Below the pieces are notes generated by a model. The model was not told the origin of the DNA, ran no database searches, and was given only the letters and a program-made list of their open reading frames with translations. The position numbers and the translations under genes are program-made. DNA of 64,000 nucleotides from positions 14,903 to 78,902 of the forward strand of contig RHKY01000034.1 of assembly GCA_008363385.1 (NCBI GenBank), read 5' to 3'. How positions within the stretch are numbered: the stretch's first letter is position 1; every line of letters begins with the position of its first letter. This DNA comes from Acidobacteriota bacterium. Lineage in GTDB: Bacteria > Acidobacteriota > Thermoanaerobaculia > UBA5066. Below are positions 8,930-48,770 of this stretch, piece after piece.

Positions 8930-9017
8930 GGGAGGCCTCCTTTTCCCGTTCGGTTGTGGGGCGGAACTTAGCGCATTTCCGCCCCCTCGGAGGACTCCGC
9001 CCGGGCAGAATCCGCGG

Positions 9018-9857
9018 ATGGGGAGCCGCCGCTTCGTCCTGACCAGCCGCCGCGGGGAGCCGATCCGCGGGGACGTCCGCTTCGCCGACGAGGGCGGCTG
9101 CCGCCCCGTCGTCGTCGTCTCCCACGGATTCAAGGGGTTCAAGGACTGGGGCTTCCACCCGTGGCTCGGCGAGCGGCTGGCCGCCTCGGGCTTCGTCTGT
9201 GTCCACTTCAACTTCTCGCGCAACGGCGTGGGCGAGGACCTCCTGGAGTTCACCGACCTCGACCGCTTCCGGCGGAACACGGTCTCGGTCGAGGCGGACG
9301 ACCTCGCGACCGTCCTGTCGGAGCTCTCCACCCCGGGCGGCGTCTTCGCGGACGTCCCCCTCGACCCCGCGCGGGTCGGCCTCCTCGGGCACAGCCGCGG
9401 GGGCGGGGTCTCGCTCCTCGTCGCCTCGGAGACGCCCTCCGTCAGGGCGCTCGTCACCTGGGCCGGCGTCGCCACGTTCGACCGGTTCTCCGACGCGGCT
9501 CTCCAGGAGCTCTGGAGGCGGCAGGGCTACATCGAGGTGATGAACGCCCGGACGGGGCAGATGATGCCGATCGGCGTGGAGGCGCTGGACGACTACCTCG
9601 CCAACCGCGAGCGGTTCGACCTCCTCGCGGCGGTCTCTCGCCTCTCGTGCCCCTACCGGATCGTCCACGGGACGGGCGACGAGAGCGTGCCGTTCGCGGA
9701 GGCCGAGGCGCTCCACGCGGCCGGAGAGCGGACCGACCTCGTCCGGCTGGAGGGCGCGGGGCACACCTTCGGCGCGACGCACCCGTTCGGCGGGACGACC
9801 CCCGACCTCGCCCGGGCCCTCGCGGCCGCGGTCGAGTGGTTCTCGAAGTCCCTCTGA
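9018..9857 (+). CDS. alpha/beta hydrolase (dienelactone hydrolase / BAAT-like)
   Basis: Starts MGSRRFVLTSRRGEPIRGDVRF. It carries VVVVSHGFKGF, GLLGHSRGGG (nucleophile elbow G-H-S-R-G) and HGTGDESVP. The upstream 120 aa of the track ORF lack coding character. Confidence 0.8.
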   Translation: MGSRRFVLTSRRGEPIRGDVRFADEGGCRPVVVVSHGFKGFKDWGFHPWLGERLAASGFVCVHFNFSRNGVGEDLLEFTDLDRFRRNTVSVEADDLATVLSELSTPGGVFADVPLDPARVGLLGHSRGGGVSLLVASETPSVRALVTWAGVATFDRFSDAALQELWRRQGYIEVMNARTGQMMPIGVEALDDYLANRERFDLLAAVSRLSCPYRIVHGTGDESVPFAEAEALHAAGERTDLVRLEGAGHTFGATHPFGGTTPDLARALAAAVEWFSKSL

Positions 9858-9875
9858 TCGCGTCCCGCGGGCGCT

Positions 9876-10775
9876 TCAGGCGGGGCGAGGGCGGGCGGCG
9901 TCGATGGCGTCGCGCATCGCGGCGACGTGGGCGGGCGTCGTCCCGCAGCAGCCGCCGAGGAGGGTGACGCCCGCCGCGAGGAGGTCCGGGACCCTGGCCG
10001 CCATCCTCCTCGGCGCTTCCGGGTAGACGGTCCGCCCGTCGTGGGAGACGGGGAGCCCCGCGTTCGGGCGCGCCGAGAGCGGGAGCGCCGTCGCCTCGCG
10101 GAAGGCGCGGGCGATCGCGGCCGCCACGGCGCTCCCGGTCCCGCAGTTGGCTCCGAGGACGTCGGCCCCGGCCTCCCCCAGCCGTCGCGCCGCCTTGGCC
10201 ACCGGCACGCCCATCACCGTGAAGAAGCCTCGCGGCGTCTCCTCGAACGTCATCGTCGCCACGACGGGGAGGCCGGGGGCCTTCCTGCGGGCCGCCTCGA
10301 CCGCCAGGCACGCCTCCGCCAGGTCCGACATCGTCTCCACGCAGACGAGGTCGACTCCCGCCGTCGCCAGCGCGTCGGCCTGCCGCTCGAAGGCCGTCCG
10401 GGCGACGTCGAGCGAGAGGTCGCCGAGCGGCGCCAGGAGCTCGCCGAGCGGGCCGACCGACCCCGAGACGAGCGCCCGCCTCCCGACCCCCTCTCGGATC
10501 GCCGCGACCGCCTGCCGGCAGACCTCCGCGCACTTCCCCGAGAGGCCGTGCCGCGAAAGGCGCACCTCCGAGGCCCCGAACGTGTTCGTCGTGATCACCT
10601 CGGCCCCGGCCGCGAAGTAGGCCATCGCGATCTCGGTGAGGAGCCGGGGCCGCGAGAGGCAGACGGTCTCGGGCGGATCGCCGGGGGCGAGCCCCCGCTC
10701 CTGGAGCATCGTCCCCCACGCCCCGTCGCCCAGGACCGGCTCGCCGCGGGAGAGGCGCGAAAGGAGGGGGTCCAC
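9876..10775 (-). CDS. homocysteine-binding (S-methyltransferase, MetH N-terminal-like) domain protein
   Basis: 299 aa: GDGAWGTMLQERGL, ITTNTFGAS, GVDLVCVETMSDL, LGANCGTG, GGCCGTTPAHV. The Cys...Cys-Cys arrangement is the zinc triad of the Pfam S-methyl_trans / MetH Hcy-binding domain. It starts with GTG. Confidence 0.8.
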   Translation of the reverse strand: MDPLLSRLSRGEPVLGDGAWGTMLQERGLAPGDPPETVCLSRPRLLTEIAMAYFAAGAEVITTNTFGASEVRLSRHGLSGKCAEVCRQAVAAIREGVGRRALVSGSVGPLGELLAPLGDLSLDVARTAFERQADALATAGVDLVCVETMSDLAEACLAVEAARRKAPGLPVVATMTFEETPRGFFTVMGVPVAKAARRLGEAGADVLGANCGTGSAVAAAIARAFREATALPLSARPNAGLPVSHDGRTVYPEAPRRMAARVPDLLAAGVTLLGGCCGTTPAHVAAMRDAIDAARPRPA

Positions 10776-10778
10776 GGC

Positions 10779-11456
10779 TCAGGCCCTCCCCGCCTCGGCG
10801 ACGAGGGCGCGGACGCGCTCGACGGCGCTCCGGGCGTCGAAGGCGAAGCCGTCCGCCCCGATCTCGCGCGCGAAGGCCTCCGTCACCGGCGCCCCGCCCA
10901 CGATGACGCGGACGCGGCCCGAGAGCCCCCGCTCGCGGACGAGGCCGATGACGTCGCGCATCCCGGCCATCGTCGTCGTCAGGAGGGCCGACAGGCCGAT
11001 CACCGAGGCCCCGGCCTCCTCGGCCGCCTCGACGAACCGCTCGGCCGGGACGTCCGTGCCGAGGTCCGTCACCTGGAAGCCCGCCCCGCGCAGGAGGATC
11101 CCCACCAGGTTCTTGCCGATGTCGTGGATGTCCCCCTTCACGGTCCCGAGGACGACGCGCCCCGCGCTCGGCGCGCCCCCGGGCCCCAGGAGCGGCTCCA
11201 GGACGTCCATCCCGGCGCGCATCGCGCGCGCGGCCAGGAGGACGTCCGGGAGGAAGACCTCGCGCCGGCCGAACTCCTCGCCGACGACCGACATCCCGGC
11301 GAGGAGCCCGCCCTTCAGGACCTCCGCCGCCGTCGCTCCCTCGGCCAGCGCCCGCCTCGTCCCGACGCGCACCTCGTCCGCCTCTCCCGCGCGCAGGCTC
11401 GCCGCGATCGCCGCGAGCGCAGAGGTCGCCGCGGTCGCTCCTTCCGGCCCGTTCAC
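10779..11456 (-). CDS. cobalamin (B12)-binding corrinoid protein
   Basis: Contains GDIHDIGKNLV (the DxHxxG B12-binding motif) and the Rossmann-like IGLSALLTTTM...VRVIVGGAPVT. The probable start is a GTG at 11456 overlapping the upstream stop (GTGA); the track ORF extends to 11528. Confidence 0.8.
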   Translation of the reverse strand: MNGPEGATAATSALAAIAASLRAGEADEVRVGTRRALAEGATAAEVLKGGLLAGMSVVGEEFGRREVFLPDVLLAARAMRAGMDVLEPLLGPGGAPSAGRVVLGTVKGDIHDIGKNLVGILLRGAGFQVTDLGTDVPAERFVEAAEEAGASVIGLSALLTTTMAGMRDVIGLVRERGLSGRVRVIVGGAPVTEAFAREIGADGFAFDARSAVERVRALVAEAGRA

Positions 11457-12190
11457 GCACCCTCCTCTTCGCTCGAAGGCCTCGCGCGGAGCGAGGCCAT
11501 CCGCGTCAGGCACGTCTTCTCCTCGCACCCGTCGCAGAAGTCGAAGTCGGGCCGGAAGCGGTGCGCCTCGGCCGCAGCCGCCACGAGTACGCCCGAGACC
11601 GACTTCACCGGCTCCATGAGCCCCCCCGCCCCGAGCCGGATCCCCGCCTCGCGCGGGGCCAGGCGCGCGAAGAGCGACCGCTGCCCTTCGAGCCGCCAGC
11701 CGCAGTACCCGGGCGAGTAGGCCAGGACGCGCGTCTCGCCGTCCGCGCGCCCCTGCTCGCGCAGGCGCGACAGGAGCGCCCCGGAAAGCCGCTCGGAGAG
11801 GCGCTCTGCCGCCCCCGCGGCGACGGCGTCGAGGAGGAAGGCTCGGGGGGCGTCCCCCTGGTCGAAGAGGGAGGAGACGCGGGCCCCGACCTCGGGCCCC
11901 AGCGTCGCCGCGAAGAGCGAGAAGGTCCTGGCGCGCGGGACCACCCGGTCGACGGCGGCCTCCTCCCCGTCCCGCCCGCCGTCGGAGAGGACGGCCAGGA
12001 AGTCGTCCCGGCCGACCTCCTCCTCCACGCCGCGGGGCCGCGCCTCGCGCAGGAAGAGCGAGACCGCCTCGGCGAGGAGAGCGTCCACCCGCGGCGACGG
12101 CTCCTGACCGGCCGGGATCCCCGCGGCGACGAGGAGGCGTTCCCTCGACGGGACGATCCCGGACGGGGCGAACGAGTGGACGCGCCTCAC
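11453..12190 (-). CDS. methionine-synthase-type reactivation (Met_synt_B12-like) domain protein
   Basis: 245 aa with VLAYSPGYCGWRLEGQRSLFARL, resembling the MetH activation/AdoMet-binding domain. It is embedded between the MttB-like gene and the corrinoid protein. Confidence 0.6.
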   Translation of the reverse strand: MRRVHSFAPSGIVPSRERLLVAAGIPAGQEPSPRVDALLAEAVSLFLREARPRGVEEEVGRDDFLAVLSDGGRDGEEAAVDRVVPRARTFSLFAATLGPEVGARVSSLFDQGDAPRAFLLDAVAAGAAERLSERLSGALLSRLREQGRADGETRVLAYSPGYCGWRLEGQRSLFARLAPREAGIRLGAGGLMEPVKSVSGVLVAAAAEAHRFRPDFDFCDGCEEKTCLTRMASLRARPSSEEEGA

Positions 12191-13641
12191 GGCCCCCGCT
12201 CCGGCAGCCGGTCGGCCCCCGCGCGGCGCGCCGCGGCCTCCATCAGGAGGACGAGGTCCCGCCGCGCCGCGTCAGCGAGACGACCCGGCTTCCACGCCCC
12301 GACGCGCCTCGCAACCTCGGCGGAGGCCCTCGCCGCAAGCGTCGCCGCGCCGTCCGCCCGCCACCGCTCCTCGCGGTTCCGGTCGAGGACGGGGCCCGGG
12401 AAGGAGATCTCCTTGCGGAGGTTCCTCCGCGTGTGGGAGGCGATGAGCAGGTGCTTCTCGGCGAGGAGCTCCGAGAGGATCGGCAGCGCAGGGAAATCGT
12501 CCCGCGGCTCGACGCCGCGGACGAGGCGGAGCGCCATCCCGCACAGCTCGTCGTCCAGGACGAGCTTCTCCAGGCTGAAGCCGTCGTCCAGGTCGAGGAG
12601 GCCGGGCCCCGAGACGCTGTTGACGCCCGAGAGCGCGGCGAGCAGGGCCCCGGCGGCGCTCTCGAGCCCGGCCTGGGCGTCCAGCTCCTTGGCGTCGGAG
12701 ACCGTCGCGTACCCCTGCGTCGGCAGGCCCAGCGACTTCCCCACCTCGTTCATCCCGCACGTCAGCATCGACGTCTCGATCGCGCCCGTCGGGGCCGTCT
12801 CGCTCCGCACGTCGAAGACCGCGGCCGACGTCCCCCAGAGGAGCGGCGCGCCCGGCGCGGCCAGCTGGTGGAGGACGACTCCCAGGAGCGCCTCGGCCGT
12901 CCCCTGGACGAGGGTGCCGACGAGCGTCACCGGCGAGACGAACCCCGCCATCGGCACCGGGACGATCTCCACCGGCACGCCGGACCGGGCGGCGAGGACG
13001 AGGACGCGCGCGGCCTCCTCCGACCAGGAGAGGGGCGCGGTCGGGCAGCAGGTGAAGACCGCGAACGGCCTCTCGCGCAGCGCGGTGGCGCTCCCCCGGA
13101 CGGCGAGGAGCATCTCGAGCATCGTCGCGAACCCCTCGGCCGAGAAGGACCCGGTCACGACCGGCTTCTCGCAGTGGAGGAGCCCCAGGAAGAGCCGGTA
13201 GGAGTCCGAGACCGTGGCCGGGACGTCCGAGGGGACGAAGGCCGTGCTCTGGGCGTAGAGGTTCGGGAGGGAGGAGACGAGCCTGGCGTACCGGACGTAG
13301 TCGGCGGTGACCGGCGGCCGCAGCGCTCCCCCGTCGAGGAGGCGGGTCGCCGCGGAGCCGGGGGCGAAGCCGACGGAGTCGCCCGCCAGCTCGTGCGCCC
13401 GCTCGCCCGGGACGTCGTAGAGGGCGAACCCGCGCGGGGCCGTCCCGAGGGCCTTCTCGACGAGCGCGCCGGGCAGCCGCGCCCTTCGCGCGCCTGGGTC
13501 CACCTCGGCCCCGTGGTCGGCGAGGAGGGCGAGCGCTGCCGGGTCGTGGACCTCCACGCCGAGCCGCAGGAGCACCTCGCGGGCCTCCGCCACGATCCGC
13601 TCGCGGAGTGTGTCGCCGAGGAGGCGGAGGAGGGGCCGCAC
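12187..13641 (-). CDS. trimethylamine-methyltransferase (MttB) superfamily protein, non-pyrrolysine type; probable quaternary-amine:corrinoid methyltransferase
   Basis: C-terminal ~485 aa of track ORF 12187..14034: LGDTLRERIVAEAREVLLRLGVEVHD...FTCCPTAPLSWSEEA...GTLVQGTAEALLGVVLHQ...SMLTCGMNEVG...GVNSVSGPGLLDLDDGFSLEKLVLDDE matches the MttB/MtgB fold. The start is uncertain: the GTG near 13641 is proposed because the ATG at 13716 collides with the divergent gene. Confidence 0.75.
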   Translation of the reverse strand: MRPLLRLLGDTLRERIVAEAREVLLRLGVEVHDPAALALLADHGAEVDPGARRARLPGALVEKALGTAPRGFALYDVPGERAHELAGDSVGFAPGSAATRLLDGGALRPPVTADYVRYARLVSSLPNLYAQSTAFVPSDVPATVSDSYRLFLGLLHCEKPVVTGSFSAEGFATMLEMLLAVRGSATALRERPFAVFTCCPTAPLSWSEEAARVLVLAARSGVPVEIVPVPMAGFVSPVTLVGTLVQGTAEALLGVVLHQLAAPGAPLLWGTSAAVFDVRSETAPTGAIETSMLTCGMNEVGKSLGLPTQGYATVSDAKELDAQAGLESAAGALLAALSGVNSVSGPGLLDLDDGFSLEKLVLDDELCGMALRLVRGVEPRDDFPALPILSELLAEKHLLIASHTRRNLRKEISFPGPVLDRNREERWRADGAATLAARASAEVARRVGAWKPGRLADAARRDLVLLMEAAARRAGADRLPERGP

Positions 13642-13714
13642 GGTGCGCGCGAGTCTACCGGCCCTCGCCCCCCTTGCGCGGGTCCTGCGACTGCGTCCAC
13701 CATCCGCGCCACCC

Positions 13715-14812
13715 ATGAGCAACGCCCTCCCCCTCCTCGGGACGATCGCCCTGGCGATCGCCGCGCTCCTGACGCTCCTCGTCGCAGCGATGACGAGCCT
13801 CTTCACGATGAAGCTGCCGGGCGGTCCGGACGCGATGGGGATCGTCGTCGTCTTCTTCGTCCAGCTCCTGGCGTGGGTCCTGACGCTGGGCGCCGCCTTC
13901 GCGGCCGTTCGCCGCGGCTCGTTCGACTGGCTGACGCGGAGCGGCGCGCTCGCCGCGCTCCTCGTCCTCGTCGTCGTCGCGGGCCTCGCCGGCCTCGCGG
14001 TGGCCGCCGCCAACGCCTCGCTGAGCCCGGCCACCCCCGCCCGGACGCTCGTCGGCCTGTCGGGGGCCCTCCTCCTCCCGCTTCTTGCTCAGGCGTACCT
14101 CCTCGGCCTCCTCCGCTCCGACGCCGCTTCGGTCGGCGCGAGCCCGTGGACACGCCCCGTGGCGGGCCTCCTCGCGCTCGCCGCGCTCCTGGCCTGCGGG
14201 CTGGGCCTCCTCGAGATGGTCCGCTCCGGGAGGCAGAAGGCCCGCGCGATCGAAGCGGCGCGGCAGCACGAGGACGCCTGGCAGGCCGAGCAGCGCGAGT
14301 GGCGGAAGAGGAAGGACGCCGAGGACGCGGCCGCCCTCGACGCCCTCCCCGACGACGCGCCGCTCGAGACGTTCGTCACGCACCTCTTCATCGACAAGTC
14401 CGACGCGCACCAGGCGCGCGCGCTGGCGCGGATCCGGAAGCTGCCGGGCCTGACGGACCGCCTCGCCGAGTGCCTCTCGGGCCCCGAGCCGCTCCAGCGC
14501 GAGTACTGCGCCAGCGTCATCCGGCGCTCGGAGGACCCCGATCCCGCCTGGGCGCCGATCGTCGGGAAGGCGATCACCCTCCTCGCCGAGGACTACCGCC
14601 GGGACGCCAGGGACCGCGCGCGGGGGAAGATCACGCACGTCACCGGACTGACGAAGGGGATCCTCCTTGCGGCCCAGCGGTTCGACGTCCGCTTCGAGGC
14701 GGAGGCGCGGGACCTGAAGGCCGCGCTGAGGTCCTGGCCCGACCCGGACCAGCGCAAAGAGCCGATCGGCCTCGTCGACCTCTACCTCGCGGGTCAGCGC
14801 ATCTCGAACTGA
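13715..14812 (+). CDS. hypothetical membrane protein (about five N-terminal TM helices plus a C-terminal soluble domain)
   Basis: Starts MSNALPLLGTIALAIAALLTLLVAAM and carries further hydrophobic helices. The charged helical C-terminus has good amino-acid composition (E, K, D, W, Y, F). Confidence 0.55.
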   Translation: MSNALPLLGTIALAIAALLTLLVAAMTSLFTMKLPGGPDAMGIVVVFFVQLLAWVLTLGAAFAAVRRGSFDWLTRSGALAALLVLVVVAGLAGLAVAAANASLSPATPARTLVGLSGALLLPLLAQAYLLGLLRSDAASVGASPWTRPVAGLLALAALLACGLGLLEMVRSGRQKARAIEAARQHEDAWQAEQREWRKRKDAEDAAALDALPDDAPLETFVTHLFIDKSDAHQARALARIRKLPGLTDRLAECLSGPEPLQREYCASVIRRSEDPDPAWAPIVGKAITLLAEDYRRDARDRARGKITHVTGLTKGILLAAQRFDVRFEAEARDLKAALRSWPDPDQRKEPIGLVDLYLAGQRISN

Positions 14813-17800
14813 GGCCGCGGCCGCGGCCGCCGAACGACGACCGGCTCGGGCCAGCCCGGGACGGAGGGCTCCCCGGCCGGGACGGAGTCCAGCAGCGCGG
14901 CCAGCTCCTCCGCCCAAGAAAGGACGTCGGCCGGGCGGTCCTCCGGCCTCTTGGCGAGCGCCCGGCCGAGGAGGGCGTCCACGCCGGTGGGGATCCCCGC
15001 CACCGTGCCTGCGAGAGGGCGGGGCGGGGCCTTCAGGACGACGGCGAAGGTCCGGGCCAGGTCCCCCTCGGGCACGAGCCGCCGGCCCGAGAGGGCCTCG
15101 TGGAGGACGGCCGCCAGCGAGTAGAGGTCGCTCCGCGCGTCCACCGCCTCGCCGCGCACCTGCTCGGGCGACATGTAGGCGGGCGTCCCGACGATCGTCC
15201 CGGTCTGCGTGAGGTGCCCCTCGACCCGGAGCGACTTGGCGACGCCGAAGTCGAGGACCTTCGCCTGGATGCCTCCGTCGCCGGGGACGAGGAAGACGTT
15301 CGCCGGCTTGACGTCGCGGTGGACGACGCCGGCCCGGTGCGCGGCCTCGAGCGCCCCGCCGGCGTGACGCGCGAGGCGAGCGACCTGCGAGGGCGTCCCC
15401 GCCCCGTGCGTGGCCAGCGCGTCGGCGAGGCTCACGCCCGAGAGGTGCTCCATCACGAGGAAGACCGAGCCGTCGCCCAGCTCGCCGGTGTCGAAGACGG
15501 CCACGACGCCGGGGTGGCGGATCTGCGCCACGATCCGCGCCTCGCGCTCGAACCGCAGGAGGGCCCCGGCGTCCCGCAGCCGGTCGGGCCGGACCACCTT
15601 CACGACGACCAGCCGGTCCAGCCGCTCGTCGCGCGCCTCGAAGACCGTCCCCATCCCCCCCTCGCCCAGCCAGCGCAGGAGGCGGTACCGGCCGTCCGGG
15701 CGGAGCGGGAGGAACCGCGACCAGTCGGGCGGGGCCCCGTCCGAGGGGCAGGCCGTCACGCCGTCGTCGAAGACCTCGCCGCAGGACGGGCAGACGGCGG
15801 CCAGCTCCACGCCCTTCCTGTGCAGCTCCTCGCGGTGCGCCAGGCGCGCGGCCTCGGAGGTCACGAGCCGCTCGCGTAGCGCCCGCAGGTCGAGCGCCGT
15901 CCCGAGGTGGCGCGCCAGGCTCGCGATCACCCTCCGCTGCACCTCGCCCCACGAGGGCCCCGGCCCCTCGACGGCGACGACGCCCCGCGGCTCGCCGGTC
16001 ATCCCGAGGACCGGCACGACGAGGCCCGTCTCGCGCGAGAGGACCCCGTCGTCGCGGAGCGCCTCGCGCATCTCCTTCCAGTCGGGGACCCGGAGGCTCG
16101 TCGAGGCGAGGGGGACCAGGACGCCGTCCTCGATCAGCCAGATGCCGATCTCCCGGGCGCCGATCGCGCGGGCCATCTCGCGCGCGACCGACCGGGCCCA
16201 CGCCGCGGGGTCCTCGAGCACCCCGGACGTCGTCGTCGTGAGCTTCTCGATCTGCTCCTGGGCCCGCTGCAGCTCCTCGGACCGCTTCTTCAGCTCGCCG
16301 GCCCTCTCGTCGACGACCCGCTCGAGCTCGCGCTCGCGTCGCTTCAGCCGCCGGATCCGGAGGCGGTGCGCCGCGAGCGCGGCGCCGAGGACGAGGCCGG
16401 CGGCGAGCGAGAGGAACCACCAGGTCTGGTAGAAGAACGGGGCGAGGGAGAGCGAGAGCTCGGCTCCCGTCTCGTTCCAGACCCCGTCGTCGTTGGCCGC
16501 GACGACGCGGAATCGGTACCAGCCGTGCCGGAGGTTCGTGTACGTGGCGGAGCGGGCCGTCCCGGCGTCCACCCAGCTCCGGTCGAACCCCTCCAGGCGG
16601 TGACGGAAGCGGACCCGGGCGGGGACGGCCAGGCTCGTCGCCGTGTAGCGCAGCTCGATCCGCTCCGTCCCCGGGCCGATCCGGACCGTCTCGCCGAGGG
16701 GAACCGTCCGCCCGTCGACGAGGAGCTCCTCGACGAGGACGGGCGGGGGGAGGGGGTTCGTCGGGAGGCGTCCGGGGTCGATGCTCGTGATCCCCTTGAT
16801 CGTCGCCACGAGGAGGCGGCCGTCCCGTGTCCGGATGCCCGCCGGGGAGCCGGCGTTGCACTCGGCGCTCCCCATGCCGTCCGCCTTCCCGAACGCCTCG
16901 CTCGTCACGCGCGGGAGGCGCCTGTCGGCGAAGGCGTCGAGCTCGTCGCGGGCCACGCGGAAGACGCCGTGGTTCGAGCTCATCCAGAGGAAGCCCTTCC
17001 CGTCCTCGAGGACCTGGAAGACGACGTCGTCGTGGAGGCCGTGCGCGCTCGTGATCGCCGCGAGCTTCCCGTCCGAGAGGCGGTTCAGCCCCCCGCCCGA
17101 CGTGCCGACCCAGAGCGTCCCGCGCTCGTCCTCGTGGAGCGAGAAGACGCGCGGGCTCGACAGCCCGTGCGCGGCCCGCCACGTCCGGAACTCCCCGTCC
17201 TTCAGCCGGCCGAGGCCCCCCCCGTCGCTCCCGATCCAGAGGCTCCCGTCGCGCCCGGCGAGGAGCGCCCGGATGCTGCTCCCCGGGAGGCCGTTCTCGG
17301 GCGTGAACGTGGTGAACCGCCCGTCCTTCCAGCGCGAGAGCCCGCTCACGGTCCCGAGCCAGACGGCCCCCTCGCCGTCGCTCACGATCGCCCGGACCCG
17401 GTCGTTGACGAGGCCGTCCGCCGTCGTCAGCCGCCGGAGCCGGCCCTTCTCGAGGACGTTGACGCCGGCCCCGTCGGTCCCGATCCAGACCCGGCCCGCG
17501 CTGTCCTCGTGGAGCGAGAAGACCTGGTCGCTCGCCAGGCCCTCCGCCGTCGTCAGCGTCGTGGCCTTCCCGCCCGAGAAGCGTGTGACGCCCCCGCCGG
17601 TCGTCCCGGCCCAGAGGGAGCCGTCGCGGTCCTCCAGGACCGCCCTCACGACGTCGTTCCCGAGGCCGTCGCGCGTCGAGACGTTCGCGAACTTCCCGTT
17701 CCGGAGCCGCACGAGGCCCCCGCCGGAGGTGCCGATCCAGAGGCTCCCCTCGCGGTCCTCGAAGAGCGAGACGACGAAGTCGTTCGCCAGGCCCTGCCGC

Positions 17801-18756
17801 GCCGTGAACGGCTCGAACCGTCCGTCGCGGAACCTGTGGACCCCGGCGCCGTCCGTCCCGACCCAGAGGCTCCCGTCGCGGTCGAGGAGGAGCGTCCGGA
17901 TCGAGAGGCTGGGCAGCCCCTCCGCGGGGCCGAAGGCGGTGACGCCGTCGTCGCGGACGCGGAAGAGGCCCGCGCCGTCGGTGCCGGCCCAGAGGCTCCC
18001 GTCCGCGTCGACGAGGGTCGGCCGGACGAGGAGAGCCGCCGGGCCGCTCCCGAGGCTACGCGCAACGAGCTTCCCGTCCTCCAGGACCTGCAGCCCGCCC
18101 CCGAAGGTCCCGATCCAGAGCCGCCCGCGCCCGTCCGCCGCCGCCGACCAGACGCGGTTCGACGCCAGTCCCTGCTTCTCCGAGAGCGTCGAGAGGCGGC
18201 CTCCGACGTACCGCCCGAGGCCGCCGCCCCCGGTGGCGATCCAGAGGTCCCCGCTGCGGTCCGCGCCGAGCGAGCGGATCCTCTCGCTCGGGAGCCCCTG
18301 CGCCCTCGTGAAGAGCTCGAACCTCCCGCCCCGCAGCCGGACGAGCCCCCCGCCGAACGTCCCGATCCAGAGGGACCCCGTCCGGTCCACGTGGAGCGCC
18401 ATGACGAAGTTGTTCCTCAGCTCCGGCGTCGTCTTCCGGTCGAAGACCGTGAACCGGACGCCGTCGAACCGGACGAGCCCCTCCTCGGTCCCGAGCCAGA
18501 GGTAGCCGTCGGGCGTCTGGGCGATCGCGTTGACGGTGTTCTGCGGCAGACCGTCGTCCTGCGTGAAGGAGTCGACGACGTACTGCGTCGTCCTCCGGCC
18601 CGGATCCAGGGCCCTCGCTCGCGGGGCGGCCAGGAGCGCCGCGAGGAGGGCCGCCGCGAGGAGTCCGGGGCTCCGGAGCCAGAACCGGCCGCGGCGCGGC
18701 ACGGCAGGACCGCCGCGCGCGGCTCGCGTGCCCGGGACACCCCCGCCTCTCACCAC
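14794..18756 (-). CDS. sensor Ser/Thr protein kinase with an N-terminal periplasmic two-component-regulator propeller (Reg_prop repeats plus Y_Y_Y), TM helix, coiled coil, zinc ribbon and C-terminal kinase domain
   Basis: About 1300 aa. A signal peptide is followed by about 14 repeats of the ...G(T/S)xxGLxRF/Y..G.F..F... type (Reg_prop) and then a Y_Y_Y-like segment (YRFRVVAANDDGVWN). Next come a TM helix (WWFLSLAAGLVLGAALAAHRL), a coiled coil, a zinc ribbon (CPSCGEVFDDGVTACP) and a Hanks kinase (GEGGMGTVFEA, VVKVV, HRDVKPANVF, DFG, GTPAYMSPE). The start may instead be the GTG near 18702. Confidence 0.75.
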   Translation of the reverse strand: MVRGGGVPGTRAARGGPAVPRRGRFWLRSPGLLAAALLAALLAAPRARALDPGRRTTQYVVDSFTQDDGLPQNTVNAIAQTPDGYLWLGTEEGLVRFDGVRFTVFDRKTTPELRNNFVMALHVDRTGSLWIGTFGGGLVRLRGGRFELFTRAQGLPSERIRSLGADRSGDLWIATGGGGLGRYVGGRLSTLSEKQGLASNRVWSAAADGRGRLWIGTFGGGLQVLEDGKLVARSLGSGPAALLVRPTLVDADGSLWAGTDGAGLFRVRDDGVTAFGPAEGLPSLSIRTLLLDRDGSLWVGTDGAGVHRFRDGRFEPFTARQGLANDFVVSLFEDREGSLWIGTSGGGLVRLRNGKFANVSTRDGLGNDVVRAVLEDRDGSLWAGTTGGGVTRFSGGKATTLTTAEGLASDQVFSLHEDSAGRVWIGTDGAGVNVLEKGRLRRLTTADGLVNDRVRAIVSDGEGAVWLGTVSGLSRWKDGRFTTFTPENGLPGSSIRALLAGRDGSLWIGSDGGGLGRLKDGEFRTWRAAHGLSSPRVFSLHEDERGTLWVGTSGGGLNRLSDGKLAAITSAHGLHDDVVFQVLEDGKGFLWMSSNHGVFRVARDELDAFADRRLPRVTSEAFGKADGMGSAECNAGSPAGIRTRDGRLLVATIKGITSIDPGRLPTNPLPPPVLVEELLVDGRTVPLGETVRIGPGTERIELRYTATSLAVPARVRFRHRLEGFDRSWVDAGTARSATYTNLRHGWYRFRVVAANDDGVWNETGAELSLSLAPFFYQTWWFLSLAAGLVLGAALAAHRLRIRRLKRRERELERVVDERAGELKKRSEELQRAQEQIEKLTTTTSGVLEDPAAWARSVAREMARAIGAREIGIWLIEDGVLVPLASTSLRVPDWKEMREALRDDGVLSRETGLVVPVLGMTGEPRGVVAVEGPGPSWGEVQRRVIASLARHLGTALDLRALRERLVTSEAARLAHREELHRKGVELAAVCPSCGEVFDDGVTACPSDGAPPDWSRFLPLRPDGRYRLLRWLGEGGMGTVFEARDERLDRLVVVKVVRPDRLRDAGALLRFEREARIVAQIRHPGVVAVFDTGELGDGSVFLVMEHLSGVSLADALATHGAGTPSQVARLARHAGGALEAAHRAGVVHRDVKPANVFLVPGDGGIQAKVLDFGVAKSLRVEGHLTQTGTIVGTPAYMSPEQVRGEAVDARSDLYSLAAVLHEALSGRRLVPEGDLARTFAVVLKAPPRPLAGTVAGIPTGVDALLGRALAKRPEDRPADVLSWAEELAALLDSVPAGEPSVPGWPEPVVVRRPRPRPQFEMR

Positions 18757-22584: not shown

Positions 22585-25500
22585 TCAGGCGGTCGCGGCC
22601 GGGACGAGGCGGGGGTGGAGCGCTGCCGGGATCGGCGTGTCGAGCCTCCAGACGATGCTCACCGGCCGCTCCCCCTCGTGCGACTCGTACCGCGCCCGTC
22701 CCAGGAACGTGAACGCCACGGCGCGCCCCTCCGCGTCCTTGGACCGCTCGCGGACGAAGAGCCAGAAGCTCCAGCCGCTCCCGTCCTCGCCCGTGTATCG
22801 GCGCAAGGTCGGTGAGCCGCTCCGGACGGTGCTCTGCGTCTGCCAGTGGAAGCGGCCCGGCCCGAGCGCGTAGTCGTGGTAGCGCGTGGAGGGACGGAAG
22901 AGGCGCGCCTCCTTCTCGACCGTCACGAAGAGGAGCTCGGCGGCCTGGTCCGGCATCCGGAAGACCCCCTCGCGGCTGGGCGCCTTCCGCTCGAGCGTCG
23001 ACGCCCCGACAGCGGCCAGGACCTCGTCCCGCTGGTACGACCGGTGGAGCGAGAGGGCCCACCCGGGCGGCAGGCTGGCACCGGGGCTGACGCTGGGGGT
23101 CCGCTCCAGGAGCAGCTCCGCCAGCTCGGCCAGCTCCCCTCCGGCGGGCGAGTACGCAAGGCGGGCCACGAGGCCGTGCGGCGTCCGGGGCGCCCCGTCC
23201 GGGAAGAGCCTCCGCGCCAGCATCACCAGCCGCCGGCCGTCCGCCGTCGTCAGCGCCTCGATCTCGGCCGGCCCGAGGTTCGGGATCCGTTTCCAGAGCG
23301 AGAGCCGCTCGGGCTCGTCGACGTGGAGGAGGCCGCCCAGCCGGCGCGCGAGCTCCTCGTCCCCGGACTCCGGACCGATCAGGCCTGCCGCCCGGCGAAT
23401 CGCCGTCCAGCTTCCGAGGGACGAGGCGTAGACGTCGTCGAGCTCGCGCCCGGTCTCGTCCAGGAACCGGGCGAGCGTCACGTCTCCCCCGCCGCCGGCC
23501 ATCTCGCGCGCTTCGCGGACGAGCGTCTCCTTCTTCCGGTCGAGCGCCTGCCTCAGGTGCGCGAGCACCTGCTCGCGGACGATCCGGTCCAGCTGGAGGC
23601 TGCATCCGGCCGGGAGGAGGGGGAAGCCCCGATCGACCTCCTCGCGGAGCGTCCCTCTCTGCATCCCCGTCAGCGCCCGCAGGACCGCCTCGAAGCGGAA
23701 CTCCCTCCGGTGCTGCCCCACGAAGTCGAGGACCAGCGCGGCCGTCTTCCCCTCCGACAGGCGCAGCCCGCGCCCCAGCTGCTGCTGGAAGAGGAGGACG
23801 CTGTCCGTCGGGCGGAGGAGGAGGATCGTGTCCACCTCCGGGATGTCGACCCCTTCGTTGTAGAGGTCGCACGTGAAGACGACCGAGACCTCGCCGTCGC
23901 GCAGCCTCCGGGGGGCCTGCTCGCGCTCCTCGTCGGAGGAGCCGCCGTGGACCGCGAGGGCCGGCACCCCCCACTCGGTGAACCTCCGCGCCATGAACCT
24001 CGCGTGCTCGACGCCGACGCAGAAGCCGAGCGCGCGGACTCTCATCGGGTCGCCCGCCTTCTCGCAGAGCTGCTTCAGGACCAGGGCCGCCCGCGCGTCG
24101 TTCCCCGTGTAGACGTTCTCGAGGCCCGCGTCGACGTACCGCCCACGCCGCCACTCGACCGCCGTCAGGTCCGTCCCGTCGCTGATCCCGAAGTAGTCGA
24201 AGGGCGCCACCAGCTGCCGGTCGATCGCGTCCCAGAGGCGGATCTCGGCGCTCGGGTGGCCGCCGAACCGGGAGAGGACGTCCTGCATGTCCGTCCGCTC
24301 GGGCGTGGCGGTGAGCCCGAGGAGGACCCCCGGGTCCAGCACGTCGAGGAGCCTCCGGTACGTCGGGGCCGCCGCGTGGTGGAACTCGTCGACGACGACC
24401 ACGTCCCAGTGAGTCCTGCCGAGGCGGGTGGCCAGGTCCTGCCGGTCGAGGCTCTGGATCGTCGCGAAGAGGTGGTCGTGCGCCTCCGGGGTCCGGCCGC
24501 CCCCCATCCGCTCGCCGAACGACGCGTCGCGGAGCACGGTCCGGTAGGCCTGGAGCGCCTGGTCGAGGATCTCCTCCCGGTGGGCGACGAAGAGGAGGCG
24601 CGGCGCGAGGCCCTTCTCCTGCCGGAGGCGGCGGTAGTCGAACGCCGCCACCATCGTCTTGCCGGTCCCCGTCGCCGCCACGACGAGGTGGCGCGACTTC
24701 CCGAGGAGGCGCCGTTCGGCGTCGAGCCGGTCCAAGATCTCCTGCTGGAACGGGTACGGCCTCACGTCCGGGAAGAAGGCGGTCCCGCGGACGGACACCG
24801 GGACGCCGCGTGCCTGGGCGAGGGCCCCTTCGAGCCTCGCCGCCGTCTCCGGGTCGCGCGGGTCGATCGCCTCGAACTCCGGGTCGTCCCAGAGCGAGTC
24901 GAAGGCCGCTCGGAAGCGCTCGACCACGGCCGGGCTCTCCCGTTCCGAGGCTTTCAGCGTCCACTCGAGCCCCTCGCCCAGCGCCGGGGCCGAGAGGTTC
25001 GCCGACCCGACGTAGACCGTCGAGAGGCCGTTCGACCGCCGGAAGAGCCACGCCTTGGCGTGCAGGCGCGTCCGGCGCCCGTCGTACGAGACCCGGACCT
25101 CCGCCCCCTCCATCGCCGCGATCTCGAGGAGCGCTCTCGCCTCCGTCGCGCCGGTGTACGTCGTGGCGAGGAGCCGGAAGCGGCCCTTCCGCCGAAGGAG
25201 GCTCTCGACAGGCTCCCGGACTCGCTGCCACCCCCGCCACGTCACGAAGCTGACGAGAGCGTCCACCTCGTCGGCGCTTTCCATCTCGGCGGCGAGCTCG
25301 GCCCCCAGCCGGGGCTCGTCGCGCCCCGCGGTCAGGAGGACGCTCCGGTCGAGCGGCGTCACCGGGCGGCGCGTCGGCGCCGCCCCGGCCCGGATTCCCC
25401 GGAGGACCCGCAGCGGCGGGACGACCGTCTCCTCGCCGCCGTCCTCGAAGCCCCTCTCGCGGAGCCAGTCGAGCGCCTCGTTCGCGAGGCGGACGACGCG

Positions 25501-25713
25501 GTCCTCCCCGGCCGCGTCCTCGTCCTCTGCAGGCTCCTGCCGCGCCAGCGTCCTCGAGATGGCACGAGAGAGATGGCGGACGAGCCGCTCCTGGGCCTCC
25601 TCGGCACCGGGACCGTCGTCGACGTCGGGAAGCAGACCGGTGGCCGAGGCCTCGGAGACCAGCCGCTCGAGGGCCCGCGTCAGCAGGTCGTCGTAGATCC
25701 CGGGGCGCGGCAT
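22585..25713 (-). CDS. PLD-family nuclease + SF2 (DExH) helicase + DUF3427-like C-terminal domain protein; restriction/defence-like
   Basis: 1042 aa. The N-terminal PLD/NgoFVII-like HKD motif is RLHAKAWLF...VYVGSANLS. Helicase motifs are VAATGTGKT (Walker A), VVVVDEFHHAAA (DExH), GLTATPER and the motif VI region QQLGRGLR. The C-terminal about 250 aa are conserved-looking (HDYALGPGRFHWQTQ). Confidence 0.8.
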   Translation of the reverse strand: MPRPGIYDDLLTRALERLVSEASATGLLPDVDDGPGAEEAQERLVRHLSRAISRTLARQEPAEDEDAAGEDRVVRLANEALDWLRERGFEDGGEETVVPPLRVLRGIRAGAAPTRRPVTPLDRSVLLTAGRDEPRLGAELAAEMESADEVDALVSFVTWRGWQRVREPVESLLRRKGRFRLLATTYTGATEARALLEIAAMEGAEVRVSYDGRRTRLHAKAWLFRRSNGLSTVYVGSANLSAPALGEGLEWTLKASERESPAVVERFRAAFDSLWDDPEFEAIDPRDPETAARLEGALAQARGVPVSVRGTAFFPDVRPYPFQQEILDRLDAERRLLGKSRHLVVAATGTGKTMVAAFDYRRLRQEKGLAPRLLFVAHREEILDQALQAYRTVLRDASFGERMGGGRTPEAHDHLFATIQSLDRQDLATRLGRTHWDVVVVDEFHHAAAPTYRRLLDVLDPGVLLGLTATPERTDMQDVLSRFGGHPSAEIRLWDAIDRQLVAPFDYFGISDGTDLTAVEWRRGRYVDAGLENVYTGNDARAALVLKQLCEKAGDPMRVRALGFCVGVEHARFMARRFTEWGVPALAVHGGSSDEEREQAPRRLRDGEVSVVFTCDLYNEGVDIPEVDTILLLRPTDSVLLFQQQLGRGLRLSEGKTAALVLDFVGQHRREFRFEAVLRALTGMQRGTLREEVDRGFPLLPAGCSLQLDRIVREQVLAHLRQALDRKKETLVREAREMAGGGGDVTLARFLDETGRELDDVYASSLGSWTAIRRAAGLIGPESGDEELARRLGGLLHVDEPERLSLWKRIPNLGPAEIEALTTADGRRLVMLARRLFPDGAPRTPHGLVARLAYSPAGGELAELAELLLERTPSVSPGASLPPGWALSLHRSYQRDEVLAAVGASTLERKAPSREGVFRMPDQAAELLFVTVEKEARLFRPSTRYHDYALGPGRFHWQTQSTVRSGSPTLRRYTGEDGSGWSFWLFVRERSKDAEGRAVAFTFLGRARYESHEGERPVSIVWRLDTPIPAALHPRLVPAATA

Positions 25714-25766
25714 TCGCGAAGACTACCCCGCGCGTCGTCCGGCCGGGCGCGCCCGGCGGCGCCGGG

Positions 25767-44219: not shown

Positions 44220-44330
44220 GGGGCGGGTACCTCCTTGAGACGGAGTCTAACCTAGCGGTCGAGGCGCACCGTCGGTCTTCGCGCGGCTAACTCGCCGCGA
44301 GTCAGGGCGTACGCGTTGTCCGATCCGTGC

Positions 44331-48440: not shown

Positions 48441-48539
48441 CGGACGGGGATGTGTACGCCCCGCCGCGCCCCGGCGCAAGGGCCGGCCGGGGGCGGCCCC
48501 CGAGGCGAGGGACCAGCTCCGAGCCGCTATCATCTCCCC

Positions 48540-48770
48540 ATGGCAGGTGCCGGTTCCGGCCGGGAGTTCGACGTCGTCATCGAGCGGGACGAGGAGGGTT
48601 GGTACGTCGCCTCCGTGCCGGCCCTTCGGGGCTGTCACACGCAGGCCCGTTCGCTCGACGAGCTTCGCGAGCGGATCCTCGAGGCGATCGAGCTCTGCCT
48701 CGAGGTGGAAGGCCCTGCCCCGTCACCCCTCGAGTTCGTCGGCATCCAGCGCGTCCGGCTCGCGTCGTGA
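48540..48770 (+). CDS. HicB-like / UPF0150-family antitoxin-like protein (orphan)
   Basis: 76 aa: MAGAGSGREFDVVIERDEEGWYVASVPALRGCHTQARSLDELRERILEAIELCLEV. This is the tail of the otherwise artefactual track ORF 44316..48770. Confidence 0.6.
   Translation: MAGAGSGREFDVVIERDEEGWYVASVPALRGCHTQARSLDELRERILEAIELCLEVEGPAPSPLEFVGIQRVRLAS

What the first reader, a model, noticed from the sequence alone, without database searches (positions are those of the whole stretch)
9876..13716. Corrinoid methyltransferase cluster coupling an MttB-family methyltransferase to a homocysteine-binding domain (split, methyl-THF-independent methionine-synthase-like system)
Four co-directional, translationally coupled genes on the minus strand (GTGA/ATGA overlaps) encode, in order: an MttB-superfamily non-Pyl methyltransferase (12187..13641), a MetH-type reactivation domain protein (11453..12190), a B12-binding protein carrying DxHxxG (10779..11456), and a stand-alone MetH-N-terminal-like Zn-dependent homocysteine methyltransferase domain (9876..10775). 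No pterin-binding/methyl-THF domain is present. The implied chemistry is quaternary amine (glycine-betaine-like) to Co(I)-corrinoid to homocysteine, yielding methionine. That would be a cobalamin-dependent betaine:homocysteine methyl transfer rather than the known MtgB-MtgC-MtgA (THF) route. Which substrate the MttB homolog uses is unknown.
Basis: partly seen in the sequence, partly recalled or inferred. Interest (0 to 1): 0.7.

Follow-up and report, generated by a model that had tools for sequence, protein, structure and literature searches.

The report
B12 methyl-donor-to-homocysteine methionine synthase operon
Four overlapping genes in an uncultured Acidobacteria genome look like a vitamin-B12 methionine synthase whose folate-binding part has been replaced by a trimethylamine-methyltransferase-family enzyme; this gene cluster is widespread and was already noted in a 2022 paper, but it has never been tested and its methyl donor is unknown and probably not glycine betaine.

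Summary
On the minus strand, 13641 to 9876, four tightly packed genes encode a non-pyrrolysine MttB-family methyltransferase, a stand-alone MetH-type (SAM-binding) reactivation protein, a His-on corrinoid protein, and a stand-alone zinc homocysteine S-methyltransferase. No pterin or folate module occurs in the operon, the 64-kb window, or 84 related loci.

The same gene order is found in 43 of 66 informative loci from species-representative genomes of many uncultured phyla. The MttB and Act genes overlap by 4 nt in 35 of 44 loci, and no fifth gene is conserved. A second architecture in Terriglobia links the same MttB clade to a corrinoid protein and a homocysteine methyltransferase, but with a RACo/DUF1638 activation system.

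The most likely function is X-CH3 to Co(I)-corrinoid to homocysteine, giving methionine without folate.

The idea is not new. Williams et al. 2022 (PMC9324843) described exactly this cluster and hypothesis. Mausz et al. 2025 showed a related MtgBCDE system that needs a pterin subunit.

What I add: all four glycine-betaine-binding residues of MtgB (Y97, R312, H348, F356) are replaced by S, Q, S, E/D in 64 of 64 clade members. An acidic betaine donor is therefore unlikely. The biochemistry remains untested.

The parts
12187..13641 (-). Non-pyrrolysine MttB-superfamily methyltransferase (484 aa). Proposed MT1: takes a methyl group from an unknown donor and puts it on Co(I) of the corrinoid protein.
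   Evidence: Pfam MTTB 242 bits. TIGR02369 scores 314 bits, below its 525 cutoff. PDB 7XCL MttB 176 bits and 9YCE MtgB 173 bits. The pyrrolysine position is Val314 and the ORF has no in-frame stop. The MtgB substrate tetrad is replaced by S96, Q309, S344, D352.
11453..12190 (-). Stand-alone MetH-type reactivation (AdoMet-binding) protein (245 aa) with an extra conserved Cys motif (C163, C219, C222, C227). Proposed to restore inactive Co(II) corrinoid by reductive methylation with SAM.
   Evidence: Pfam Met_synt_B12 24.8 bits, and 33 of 33 homologs match that family. The homolog profile hits PDB 1J6R (TM0269) at E = 3.2e-11. AF2 model pLDDT 91.5; Foldseek top 19 hits are all MetH reactivation domains. 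YSPGYCGW and MxPxKSxxG are invariant. It overlaps the MttB stop codon by 4 nt.
10779..11456 (-). Corrinoid (cobalamin-binding) protein with cap and Rossmann domains (225 aa). Proposed methyl carrier that shuttles between MT1 and MT2.
   Evidence: Pfam B12-binding_2 64 bits and B12-binding 95 bits. NCBIfam MtgC_2 205 bits and pyl_corrinoid 195 bits, both below their cutoffs. DxHxxG...SxL...GG is present in 56 of 56 homologs.
9876..10775 (-). Stand-alone Zn-dependent homocysteine S-methyltransferase domain protein (299 aa). Proposed MT2: methyl-Co(III) plus homocysteine gives methionine plus Co(I).
   Evidence: Pfam S-methyl_trans 212 bits. The best solved relative is the T. maritima MetH Hcy module 1Q7M, 167 bits. 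The Zn-ligand cysteines C211, C276, C277 are invariant.
13642..13714 (.). Short (about 73 bp) divergent intergenic region between the operon and a plus-strand membrane-protein gene. Presumed promoter region (inferred only).
   Evidence: Read from the sequence. No sigma-70-like site was found and there is no Rfam riboswitch.

Best explanation
The operon encodes a four-protein, cobalamin-dependent, folate-independent methionine-forming methyltransferase system. In effect it is a MetH whose methyl-tetrahydrofolate-binding module has been replaced by an MttB-superfamily enzyme.

Proposed cycle:
1. The MttB homolog binds a small methylated donor. The donor is unknown; from the pocket residues it is probably not an acidic betaine.
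2. The Co(I) corrinoid protein abstracts the methyl group, giving methyl-Co(III).
3. The Zn-dependent homocysteine methyltransferase transfers that methyl group to homocysteine, making methionine and regenerating Co(I).
4. When Co(I) is accidentally oxidised to Co(II), the MetH-type reactivation protein re-methylates it with S-adenosylmethionine and an external one-electron donor.

Shown here: the domain identities, the cofactor and metal motifs, the conserved gene order and overlaps, and the absence of any pterin module nearby. Inferred: the direction of methyl flow, homocysteine as the acceptor, SAM-dependent reactivation, and everything about the donor.
For: - Domain identities.
- Motifs: DxHxxG...SxL...GG in 56 of 56 corrinoid homologs; Zn cysteines in 45-46 of 46 Hcy homologs; SPGYCGW in 52 of 54 Act homologs.
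- Synteny: the order MttB-Act-Cob-Hcy is kept in 43 of 66 informative loci across Acidobacteriota, Planctomycetota, Gemmatimonadota, Aminicenantes, Fermentibacteria, Zixibacteria, Calditrichia, Ignavibacteria and others.
- Coupling: the MttB/Act start-stop overlap is 4 nt in 35 of 44 loci and 1 nt in 3 of 44.
- Self-contained module: all-vs-all clustering found no fifth conserved gene. The 81 flanking proteins fall into 153 Pfam families, with no recurrent pterin or MTHFR family.
- No match to the MetH folate domain in any locus or in the window.
- Pairwise-distance matrices of the four proteins correlate, r = 0.63-0.76, Mantel p <= 0.001.
- An independent second architecture in Terriglobia (L060, L029) again joins this MttB clade to a corrinoid protein and an S-methyl_trans protein, using RACo and DUF1638 instead of Act.
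- Williams et al. 2022 reached the same hypothesis and noted that a complete MetH is also present in their MAGs, so this is not simply the organism's only MetH in pieces.
Against: - There is no biochemical or genetic test of this cluster anywhere that I could find.
- The donor is unidentified.
- In the only experimentally studied relative (MtgBCDE of Ruegeria pomeroyi), a pterin-binding subunit encoded elsewhere is essential for both activities. A distant pterin partner cannot be excluded from 64 kb of sequence.
- 19 of 66 loci carry the MttB homolog without partners nearby.
- My pterin search used a single E. coli sequence plus Pfam on flanking genes only.
- No SAM or methionine riboswitch ties the operon to methionine regulation.
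Confidence: 0.6

Rival explanations
1. MtgBCDE-like shared hub. The corrinoid and Hcy proteins are a split MetH that still takes methyl groups from methyl-tetrahydrofolate through a pterin-binding subunit encoded elsewhere in the genome. The MttB homolog mainly feeds donor-derived methyl groups through the same corrinoid into the folate pool (catabolism), as in Ruegeria pomeroyi.
For: Mausz et al. 2025 showed that MtgC and the pterin subunit MtgD are both required for methionine synthesis and for glycine betaine demethylation, with the genes scattered in R. pomeroyi. The Hcy protein here scores 220 bits on the S. meliloti-type 'betaine-homocysteine' model, which that paper reinterprets as MtgE.
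Against: No pterin-binding gene lies within about 8 kb in any of 84 loci or in the 64-kb window, and none recurs among the flanking genes. In the marine MtgBCD clusters mtgE is usually not co-located, whereas here the Hcy gene is the constant partner. Reactivation here is MetH-type rather than RamA/DUF1638. Williams et al. found an intact MetH in the same MAGs.
Confidence: 0.2
2. Same chemistry, different purpose. The module is chiefly a catabolic or detoxifying demethylase that uses homocysteine as a convenient methyl sink (as BHMT does). The methyl groups are then passed on through SAM, so the module is not a biosynthetic methionine synthase.
For: The operon has no SAM or B12 riboswitch or other methionine-regulon signal. 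An amino-acid/organocation (APC) permease gene is the only recurrent neighbour, in about 6-8 loci including the closest relatives L005-L007. A complete MetH coexists in the Electryoneota MAGs.
Against: Nothing in the sequence distinguishes this reading from the biosynthetic one. The permease association is weak (5 of 81 flanking genes) and its family is generic.
Confidence: 0.12
3. The S-methyl_trans protein methylates a thiol or selenol other than homocysteine, or the system runs in reverse. In either case methionine would not be the product.
For: PF02574 also contains enzymes with other donors. URO-D (MtaA/CmuA-type) methylcobamide:thiol methyltransferase genes occur next to the MttB homolog in a few loci: L003, L043, L060, L029, L034.
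Against: The best solved match is the cobalamin-interacting Hcy module of T. maritima MetH (167 bits), with all three Zn cysteines and the DGAxGT, TNTFGA and ET motifs invariant. Reverse transfer from methionine is thermodynamically unfavourable (established knowledge of MetH chemistry).
Confidence: 0.05

Closest known systems
[quoted passage not shown] Electryoneota MAGs (Williams et al. 2022, Environ Microbiol, PMC9324843)
   Same: The same four components and the same hypothesis: corrinoid-dependent methionine synthesis from an unknown methyl donor. That paper states the cluster occurs in diverse bacteria and that the MttB homolog lies in a clade separate from both MttB and MtgB.
   Different: This is a different host (an Acidobacteria MAG). 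That paper gave no residue-level analysis and no experiments. Its supplementary tables and figures were not available to me, so gene order and clade identity could not be compared directly.
MtgBCDE of Ruegeria pomeroyi / split MetH of Phaeobacter inhibens (Mausz et al. 2025, PMC12478193)
   Same: An MttB-family methyltransferase, a separate corrinoid protein and a separate homocysteine-binding protein share one cobalamin carrier. Methyl-donor demethylation and methionine synthesis are linked.
   Different: That system needs the pterin-binding MtgD and uses RamA/DUF1638 for reactivation. Its genes are mostly dispersed, and mtgE is usually not clustered. Its MtgB is assigned to glycine betaine. 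Here there is no pterin gene, reactivation is MetH-type, the operon is compact, and the glycine-betaine-binding residues are absent.
Cobalamin-dependent methionine synthase MetH (E. coli, T. maritima, T. thermophilus)
   Same: The Hcy module (Zn with three Cys), the cap plus His-on cobalamin module and the AdoMet reactivation module are all homologous.
   Different: The folate (pterin-binding) module is missing, and an MttB-family TIM-barrel protein sits in its place. The modules are separate polypeptides in the order MT1-Act-Cob-Hcy rather than Hcy-Fol-Cap-Cob-Act.
MtgB-MtgC-MtgA glycine betaine:THF system of Desulfitobacterium hafniense and the E. limosum MtpB/MtcB/MtyB/MthB systems
   Same: A non-pyrrolysine MttB-superfamily MT1 plus a cognate corrinoid protein. 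About 173 bits to MtgB 9YCE.
   Different: The acceptor methyltransferase there is pterin-binding (THF) and activation is by RamA. The substrate residues Y97, R312, H348, F356 (R312 is shared by all acidic-quaternary-amine members) are S, Q, S, E/D here.
Core-MetE / MesA-D folate-independent methionine synthases (Price et al. 2021, PMC7857596)
   Same: Functional analogy only: methionine is made from homocysteine with methyl groups supplied by corrinoid proteins instead of methylfolate (abstract).
   Different: Those catalytic subunits are MetE-like, not PF02574. There is no MttB-family partner and no sequence relationship.

Membership tests
MttB superfamily (PF06253) | Full-length match to the MTTB profile above the Pfam gathering score | tested here: met
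   242.4 bits against a cutoff of 25, covering residues 7-463.
MttB proper (pyrrolysine trimethylamine methyltransferase) | In-frame UAG (pyrrolysine 334), and a score above the TIGR02369 equivalog cutoff | tested here: not met
   The equivalent position is Val314 (Leu in most clade members) and the ORF is uninterrupted. TIGR02369 scores 314 bits, below the 525 cutoff. MttB Tyr364 is Ser344 here.
MtgB (glycine betaine:corrinoid methyltransferase) | Glycine-betaine-binding residues Y97, F356 (cation-pi) and R312, H348 (carboxylate), as defined in PMC13080624 | tested here: not met
   S96, D/E352, Q309 and S344 respectively, in 64 of 64 clade members (63 of 64 for Q309). PDB 4YYC keeps the Y, R and H equivalents.
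Methyltransferase-cognate corrinoid proteins (MtgC/MttC/MetH cobalamin module) | B12-binding_2 cap plus B12-binding Rossmann domain with DxHxxG...SxL...GG | tested here: met
   Both Pfam domains score above their cutoffs. The motif is present in 56 of 56 homologs including the window protein. No NCBIfam equivalog cutoff is reached, so the subfamily is unassigned.
MetH reactivation (AdoMet-binding) domain, PF02965 | Sequence-profile match and the C-shaped activation-domain fold with the PGY AdoMet motif | tested here: met
   The single sequence scores 24.8 bits against a cutoff of 25. However, 33 of 33 homologs match, best 1.4e-12. The profile hits 1J6R at E = 3.2e-11. Foldseek's top 19 hits are all MetH reactivation domains, with TM 0.80 to 1J6R. 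SPGY is invariant. SAM binding itself was not tested.
Homocysteine S-methyltransferase domain (PF02574; MetH Hcy module type) | Profile match plus three Zn-ligand cysteines (T. maritima C207, C272, C273) | tested here: met
   212.5 bits. C211, C276 and C277 align to the T. maritima ligands and are invariant.
MetH (complete cobalamin-dependent methionine synthase) | Presence of the pterin/methyl-THF-binding (Fol) module | tested here: not met
   phmmer with E. coli MetH residues 354-649 found no hit in the window or in 84 loci. No recurrent pterin family occurs among the flanking genes. TIGR02082 scores are far below its cutoff.
MtgBCDE (Mausz et al. 2025) | Pterin-binding MtgD, and RamA/DUF1638 reactivation, acting with MtgB, MtgC and MtgE | tested here: not met
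   The MtgB-, MtgC- and MtgE-like parts are present. No MtgD, RamA or DUF1638 occurs in the window operon or its 43 syntenic counterparts. A genome-wide search was not possible. RACo and DUF1638 do occur in the variant loci L060 and L029.
Williams et al. 2022 four-gene cluster | A non-Pyl MttB/MtgB homolog, a homocysteine S-methyltransferase, a corrinoid protein and an AdoMet activation protein together in one gene cluster | tested here: met
   All four are adjacent and co-directional. Whether the MttB homolog belongs to the same clade as the Electryoneota proteins could not be tested, because no sequences or supplement were available.

The most novel reading that the evidence does not exclude
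The module is a methionine synthase fed by a methyl donor outside the known substrate range of the MttB superfamily. It would be neither trimethylamine via pyrrolysine nor an acidic quaternary amine. Recognition would use a strictly conserved Ser/Gln/Ser/Glu pocket; candidates include a non-acidic methylammonium compound such as choline, or free methylamines. The reactivation protein also carries a conserved four-Cys site that might bind a metal or Fe-S centre for direct electron input. If so, several hundred uncultured species across many phyla would have an unrecognised, folate-independent route linking an environmental methyl compound directly to methionine and SAM.
Probability: 0.35. Interest if true: 0.75.

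Novelty: new member of a known kind. Interest (0 to 1): 0.5.

Why it matters
Most of the very large non-pyrrolysine MttB superfamily has no known substrate. The six characterised members use either trimethylamine or acidic quaternary amines, and almost all hand the methyl group to tetrahydrofolate or coenzyme M.

This module would send a methyl group straight to homocysteine, bypassing the folate pool. The collection scan hit its 600-stretch limit, and 581 of those stretches encode a relative of this MttB clade; the best 80 loci all come from uncultured soil, sediment and bioreactor lineages (Acidobacteriota, Planctomycetota, Aminicenantes, Fermentibacteria and others).

If confirmed, three things would follow:
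- A new methionine synthase type would be added.
- Cobalamin demand in these communities would be tied to a specific methylated compound.
- The superfamily would gain a new substrate class.

The operon is compact (four genes, 3.8 kb), so reconstitution and complementation tests are straightforward. The value of this particular finding is limited because the cluster and hypothesis are already in the literature (2022), with a related system demonstrated in 2025.

Tried and rejected
- Riboswitch or leader search. Rfam found nothing at gathering thresholds in the whole window. In 14 related loci it found only PYLIS_3 matches lying inside the MttB coding sequence, starting at the codon equivalent to Pyl334. 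I read these as coding-sequence homology, since no in-frame TAG is present, and not as pyrrolysine insertion signals.
- Promoter and terminator scan of 9000-15000. No sigma-70-like sites were found, and the four terminator-like hits lie outside or antisense to the operon. This was uninformative at 75% GC.
- Pterin-binding partner. No hit with the E. coli MetH Fol domain and none recurrent in flanking genes. Sensitivity is limited, and a genome-wide search was impossible.
- Substrate clues from neighbours. Only a generic APC amino-acid permease recurs, and occasionally URO-D (MtaA/CmuA-family) genes. Neither identifies a donor.
- Supplementary Table S4 and Fig. S2/S3 of Williams et al. are not held.
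- Fusion (Rosetta-stone) evidence. The 120 best Act homologs are all stand-alone proteins of about 240 aa.
- A full phylogeny against MtcB, MtpB, MtyB, MthB and SPO2108/SPO2134 could not be done, because their sequences were not obtainable with these tools. I used PDB members (7XCL, 9YCE/2QNE, 4YYC) and published residue data instead.
- tRNA and tandem-repeat scans of the window found nothing relevant.
- The chance or pseudogene explanation is rejected: E-values reach 1e-62 to 1e-72, the reading frames are intact, and synteny is conserved.
Full report
**1. Observation**

The window is about 74% G+C. On the minus strand there are four consecutive ORFs: 12187..13641, 11453..12190, 10779..11456 and 9876..10775.

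The junctions can be read directly in the sequence. GTGA start/stop overlaps lie at 12187-12190 and 11453-11456, and a 3-nt spacer precedes the last gene.

Two public contigs carrying the identical operon have independent gene calls giving the same products of 484, 245, 225 and 299 aa. A 100% identical copy of the second protein is deposited as a hypothetical protein of 'Acidobacteria bacterium ACD', so the window comes from an uncultured Acidobacteria MAG.

The MttB gene most likely starts at GTG 13641, because its N-terminus matches the clade consensus MRPxLRLLxD. The ATG at 13716, the outer end of the finding, is probably upstream of the real start.

**2. Domain identities**

Pfam gives the following:
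- MTTB, 242 bits
- Met_synt_B12, 24.8 bits, just under the 25-bit cutoff
- B12-binding_2 plus B12-binding, 64 and 95 bits
- S-methyl_trans, 212 bits

NCBIfam places none of the four in an equivalog. The first protein scores 314 bits on the pyrrolysine MttB model, whose cutoff is 525. The corrinoid protein resembles MtgC and methylamine corrinoid proteins (about 200 bits) more than the MetH cobalamin module (148 bits). The last protein resembles YitJ-type and S. meliloti 'Bmt'-type homocysteine methyltransferases (257 and 220 bits) and MetH (140 bits).

I firmed up the borderline reactivation protein in four ways:
- A profile of 33 homologs hits the stand-alone T. maritima activation protein TM0269 (PDB 1J6R) at E = 3.2e-11 over almost its full length, followed by MetH reactivation domains.
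- All 33 homologs match PF02965.
- An AlphaFold2 model has mean pLDDT 91.5.
- The top 19 Foldseek PDB hits for that model are all MetH (re)activation domains.

Motifs are as follows:
- The AdoMet-site motif is conserved as YSPGYCGW.
- The clade also carries an invariant C-terminal CxxCxxxxC which, together with C163, gives four conserved cysteines absent from TM0269.
- The corrinoid protein has DIHDIG, and the full DxHxxG...SxL...GG signature is present in 56 of 56 homologs.
- The homocysteine protein aligns best to the T. maritima MetH Hcy module (1Q7M, 167 bits). Its C211, C276 and C277 align with the zinc ligands and are invariant in the clade.

**3. Is the association real?**

A scan of one genome per GTDB species used two clade-specific motifs.

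The best 80 loci are all MAGs. They come from Acidobacteriota (Holophagae, Thermoanaerobaculia, Vicinamibacteria, Terriglobia), Planctomycetota, Gemmatimonadota, Aminicenantes, Fermentibacteria, Zixibacteria, Calditrichia, Ignavibacteria, Marinimicrobia, Verrucomicrobiota, Fibrobacteraceae and Acidimicrobiia.

Of the 66 loci with enough downstream DNA, 43 show the same four genes in the same order and orientation. Two further MAG loci found by exact protein lookup show the same arrangement. The MttB/Act junction is a 4-nt overlap in 35 of 44 loci and a 1-nt overlap in 3 more.

All-vs-all clustering of every ORF in these loci found no fifth conserved gene. The 81 proteins flanking the module fall into 153 Pfam families. 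The most frequent, an amino-acid (APC) permease, occurs only 5 times.

No ORF in any locus or in the whole window matches the folate-binding domain of E. coli MetH.

The pairwise-identity matrices of the four proteins are correlated (r = 0.63-0.76, Mantel p <= 0.001). This fits inheritance as a unit, although shared phylogeny contributes to the correlation.

A second, independent architecture occurs in two Terriglobia loci (L060, L029): S-methyl_trans, DUF1638, URO-D (MtaA/CmuA family), RACo-type reductive activase, corrinoid protein, a URO-D-like protein, then a member of the same MttB clade. Two different gene orders and two different reactivation systems therefore link this MttB clade to a corrinoid protein and a homocysteine methyltransferase. 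That is good neighbourhood evidence of a functional link.

Nineteen loci, mostly Terriglobia, Bryobacterales and Solibacteraceae, carry the MttB homolog alone.

**4. Mechanism**

The parts make a complete corrinoid methyl-transfer chain without a folate module:
- MT1: the MttB homolog
- Carrier: the corrinoid protein
- MT2: the homocysteine domain
- Repair: the AdoMet-type reactivation protein

By analogy with MetH and with the three-component methylamine and betaine systems (established biochemistry of those families), the likely cycle has three steps. Donor-CH3 plus Co(I) gives CH3-Co(III). CH3-Co(III) plus homocysteine then gives methionine plus Co(I). Occasional Co(II) is rescued by reductive methylation with SAM.

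The domain identities, motifs, synteny and the absence of a nearby pterin gene are shown here. The direction of flow, the acceptor, SAM use and the donor are inferred.

**5. The donor**

Picking et al. 2026 (PMC13080624) defined the glycine betaine site of D. hafniense MtgB by mutagenesis and a ligand-bound structure. Y97 and F356 make cation-pi contacts, and R312 and H348 bind the carboxylate. R312 is conserved in all characterised acidic-quaternary-amine members: MtcB, MtpB, MtyB and MthB. Every characterised non-Pyl substrate is an acidic quaternary amine.

I made a MAFFT alignment of 64 clade members with MtgB (9YCE) and MttB (7XCL). The results:
- The four MtgB positions are S96, D/E352, Q309 and S344. 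S96, S344 and an acidic residue at 352 are found in all 64 members; Q309 is found in 63 of 64.
- The MttB pyrrolysine position is Leu or Val.
- MttB Tyr364 is Ser here.
- In contrast, PDB 4YYC keeps the Y, R and H equivalents.

The 'alone' MttB homologs share the same S/Q/S/E signature, so they presumably use the same substrate. The pocket has therefore lost both the aromatic pair and the carboxylate anchor, and has gained an invariant acidic residue. This argues against glycine betaine or another acidic betaine.

The residues suggest, but do not show, a non-acidic cationic or polar methyl compound. Neighbouring genes give only a weak hint: a generic APC permease next to the operon in the closest relatives L005-L007 and in some Gemmatimonadota.

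**6. Comparison with what is known**

Williams et al. 2022 (PMC9324843) describe the same cluster in Ca. Electryoneota MAGs: a non-pyrrolysine MtgB/MttB homologue, a homocysteine S-methyltransferase, a corrinoid protein and an activation protein. They state that it occurs in diverse bacteria, and that the MttB homolog falls in an uncharacterised clade nearer MttB than MtgB. They hypothesise a novel corrinoid-dependent methionine synthesis from an unknown methyl donor, and they note that a normal MetH is also present in those MAGs. Literature searches found no other mention of the cluster and no experimental work on it.

Mausz et al. [quoted passage not shown] MtgB is the MttB-family donor enzyme there, MtgE is the homocysteine subunit, and RamA/DUF1638 are the proposed reactivation components. 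In marine genomes mtgE is usually not clustered with mtgBCD.

The present module shares the shared-corrinoid logic. It differs in lacking the pterin subunit, in using a MetH-type reactivation protein, in being one compact operon, and in its substrate pocket.

It is not a member of MttB proper, MtgB or MetH, because a defining feature fails for each. It does fit the cluster type described by Williams et al. Core-MetE/Mes synthases (PMC7857596) are functional analogues only.

**7. Rivals**

(a) An MtgBCDE-like hub with a distant pterin subunit cannot be excluded from 64 kb of sequence. It is disfavoured by the complete lack of nearby pterin genes across 43 syntenic loci and by the constant presence of the Hcy gene.

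(b) The same chemistry could serve a catabolic or methyl-sink role rather than biosynthesis. The sequence does not discriminate between them, and no riboswitch was found.

(c) A different thiol acceptor, or reverse operation, is unlikely given the MetH-type Hcy module features.

(d) Chance is excluded.

**8. Verdict**

Its 'glycine-betaine-like' donor is contradicted by the active-site residues, and the idea has been in the literature since 2022.

This is therefore a further member of a known but biochemically untested kind of system. Interest is moderate. It would rise considerably if the donor proves to be a new substrate class for the MttB superfamily.

Noticed in passing
window 44331..48722 (-): A single 1463-aa ORF fuses a type IA topoisomerase (Toprim plus Topoisom_bac, residues about 105-703) to a RecQ helicase (DEAD, Helicase_C, RecQ_Zn_bind, HRDC, residues about 793-1459). 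A Topo IA-RecQ fusion in one polypeptide is unusual and may deserve its own look.
   Followed up: no
window 11453..12190 (-), residues C163, C219, C222, C227: The stand-alone reactivation protein carries four conserved cysteines: one in YSPGYCGW and a C-terminal CxxCxxxxC, present in 53 of 54 homologs. They are absent from T. maritima TM0269. This could be a Zn or Fe-S site; its role is unknown.
   Followed up: partly
L060 1491..9458 and L029 7908..15207: Two Terriglobia MAG loci have a variant cluster: S-methyl_trans, DUF1638, URO-D (MtaA/CmuA family), RACo-type activase (Fer2 plus ASKHA), corrinoid protein, a 431-aa URO-D-like protein, then the same MttB clade. The 431-aa URO-D-like gene was seen only in L060 (a similar gene sits just upstream of MttB in L034 and L044); in L029 the other five genes lie downstream of MttB on the opposite strand. 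URO-D genes also sit near the module in L003 and L043.
   Followed up: partly
L021 4349..4448, L076 4419..4518, L046 1667..1763, L071 5119..5217: Rfam PYLIS_3 (the mttB pyrrolysine insertion element) scores above its gathering threshold inside non-pyrrolysine MttB homolog genes. The matches start at the codon equivalent to Pyl334, although there is no in-frame TAG. This is most likely coding-sequence homology, and a caution for PYLIS annotation.
   Followed up: partly
L005 6577..7965, L006 408..1796, L007 6577..7965, L043 6454..7806, L025 11600..13069, L066 10051..11667: An APC-superfamily amino-acid permease gene lies directly next to the four-gene module in the closest relatives (Holophagales, Thermoanaerobaculia) and in Gemmatimonadota, but not in the window itself. 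It is a possible substrate importer, but the family assignment is generic.
   Followed up: partly
window 14794..18756 (-) and 41535..44246 (-): Two large putative Ser/Thr kinase genes lie in the window. 41535..44246 carries a kinase domain plus PD40/WD40-like beta-propeller repeats by Pfam; 14794..18756 (1320 aa, directly upstream of the operon region) was judged from its translation only.
   Followed up: no
window 22585..25722 (-): A 1045-aa protein combines a PLD-like nuclease domain, a ResIII/DEAD helicase and DUF3427. It lies just upstream of a stretch of lower G+C (about 0.69-0.70 at 28-32 kb), so this may be a mobile or defence-related region.
   Followed up: no
L005-L084 (MttB homolog genes): The MttB homolog is unusually conserved across phyla: median pairwise identity is 68%, minimum 52%. 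The corrinoid, Hcy and Act partners have medians of 61%, 56% and 43%. All of the best 80 hits are from MAGs, with no cultured isolate among them.
   Followed up: partly
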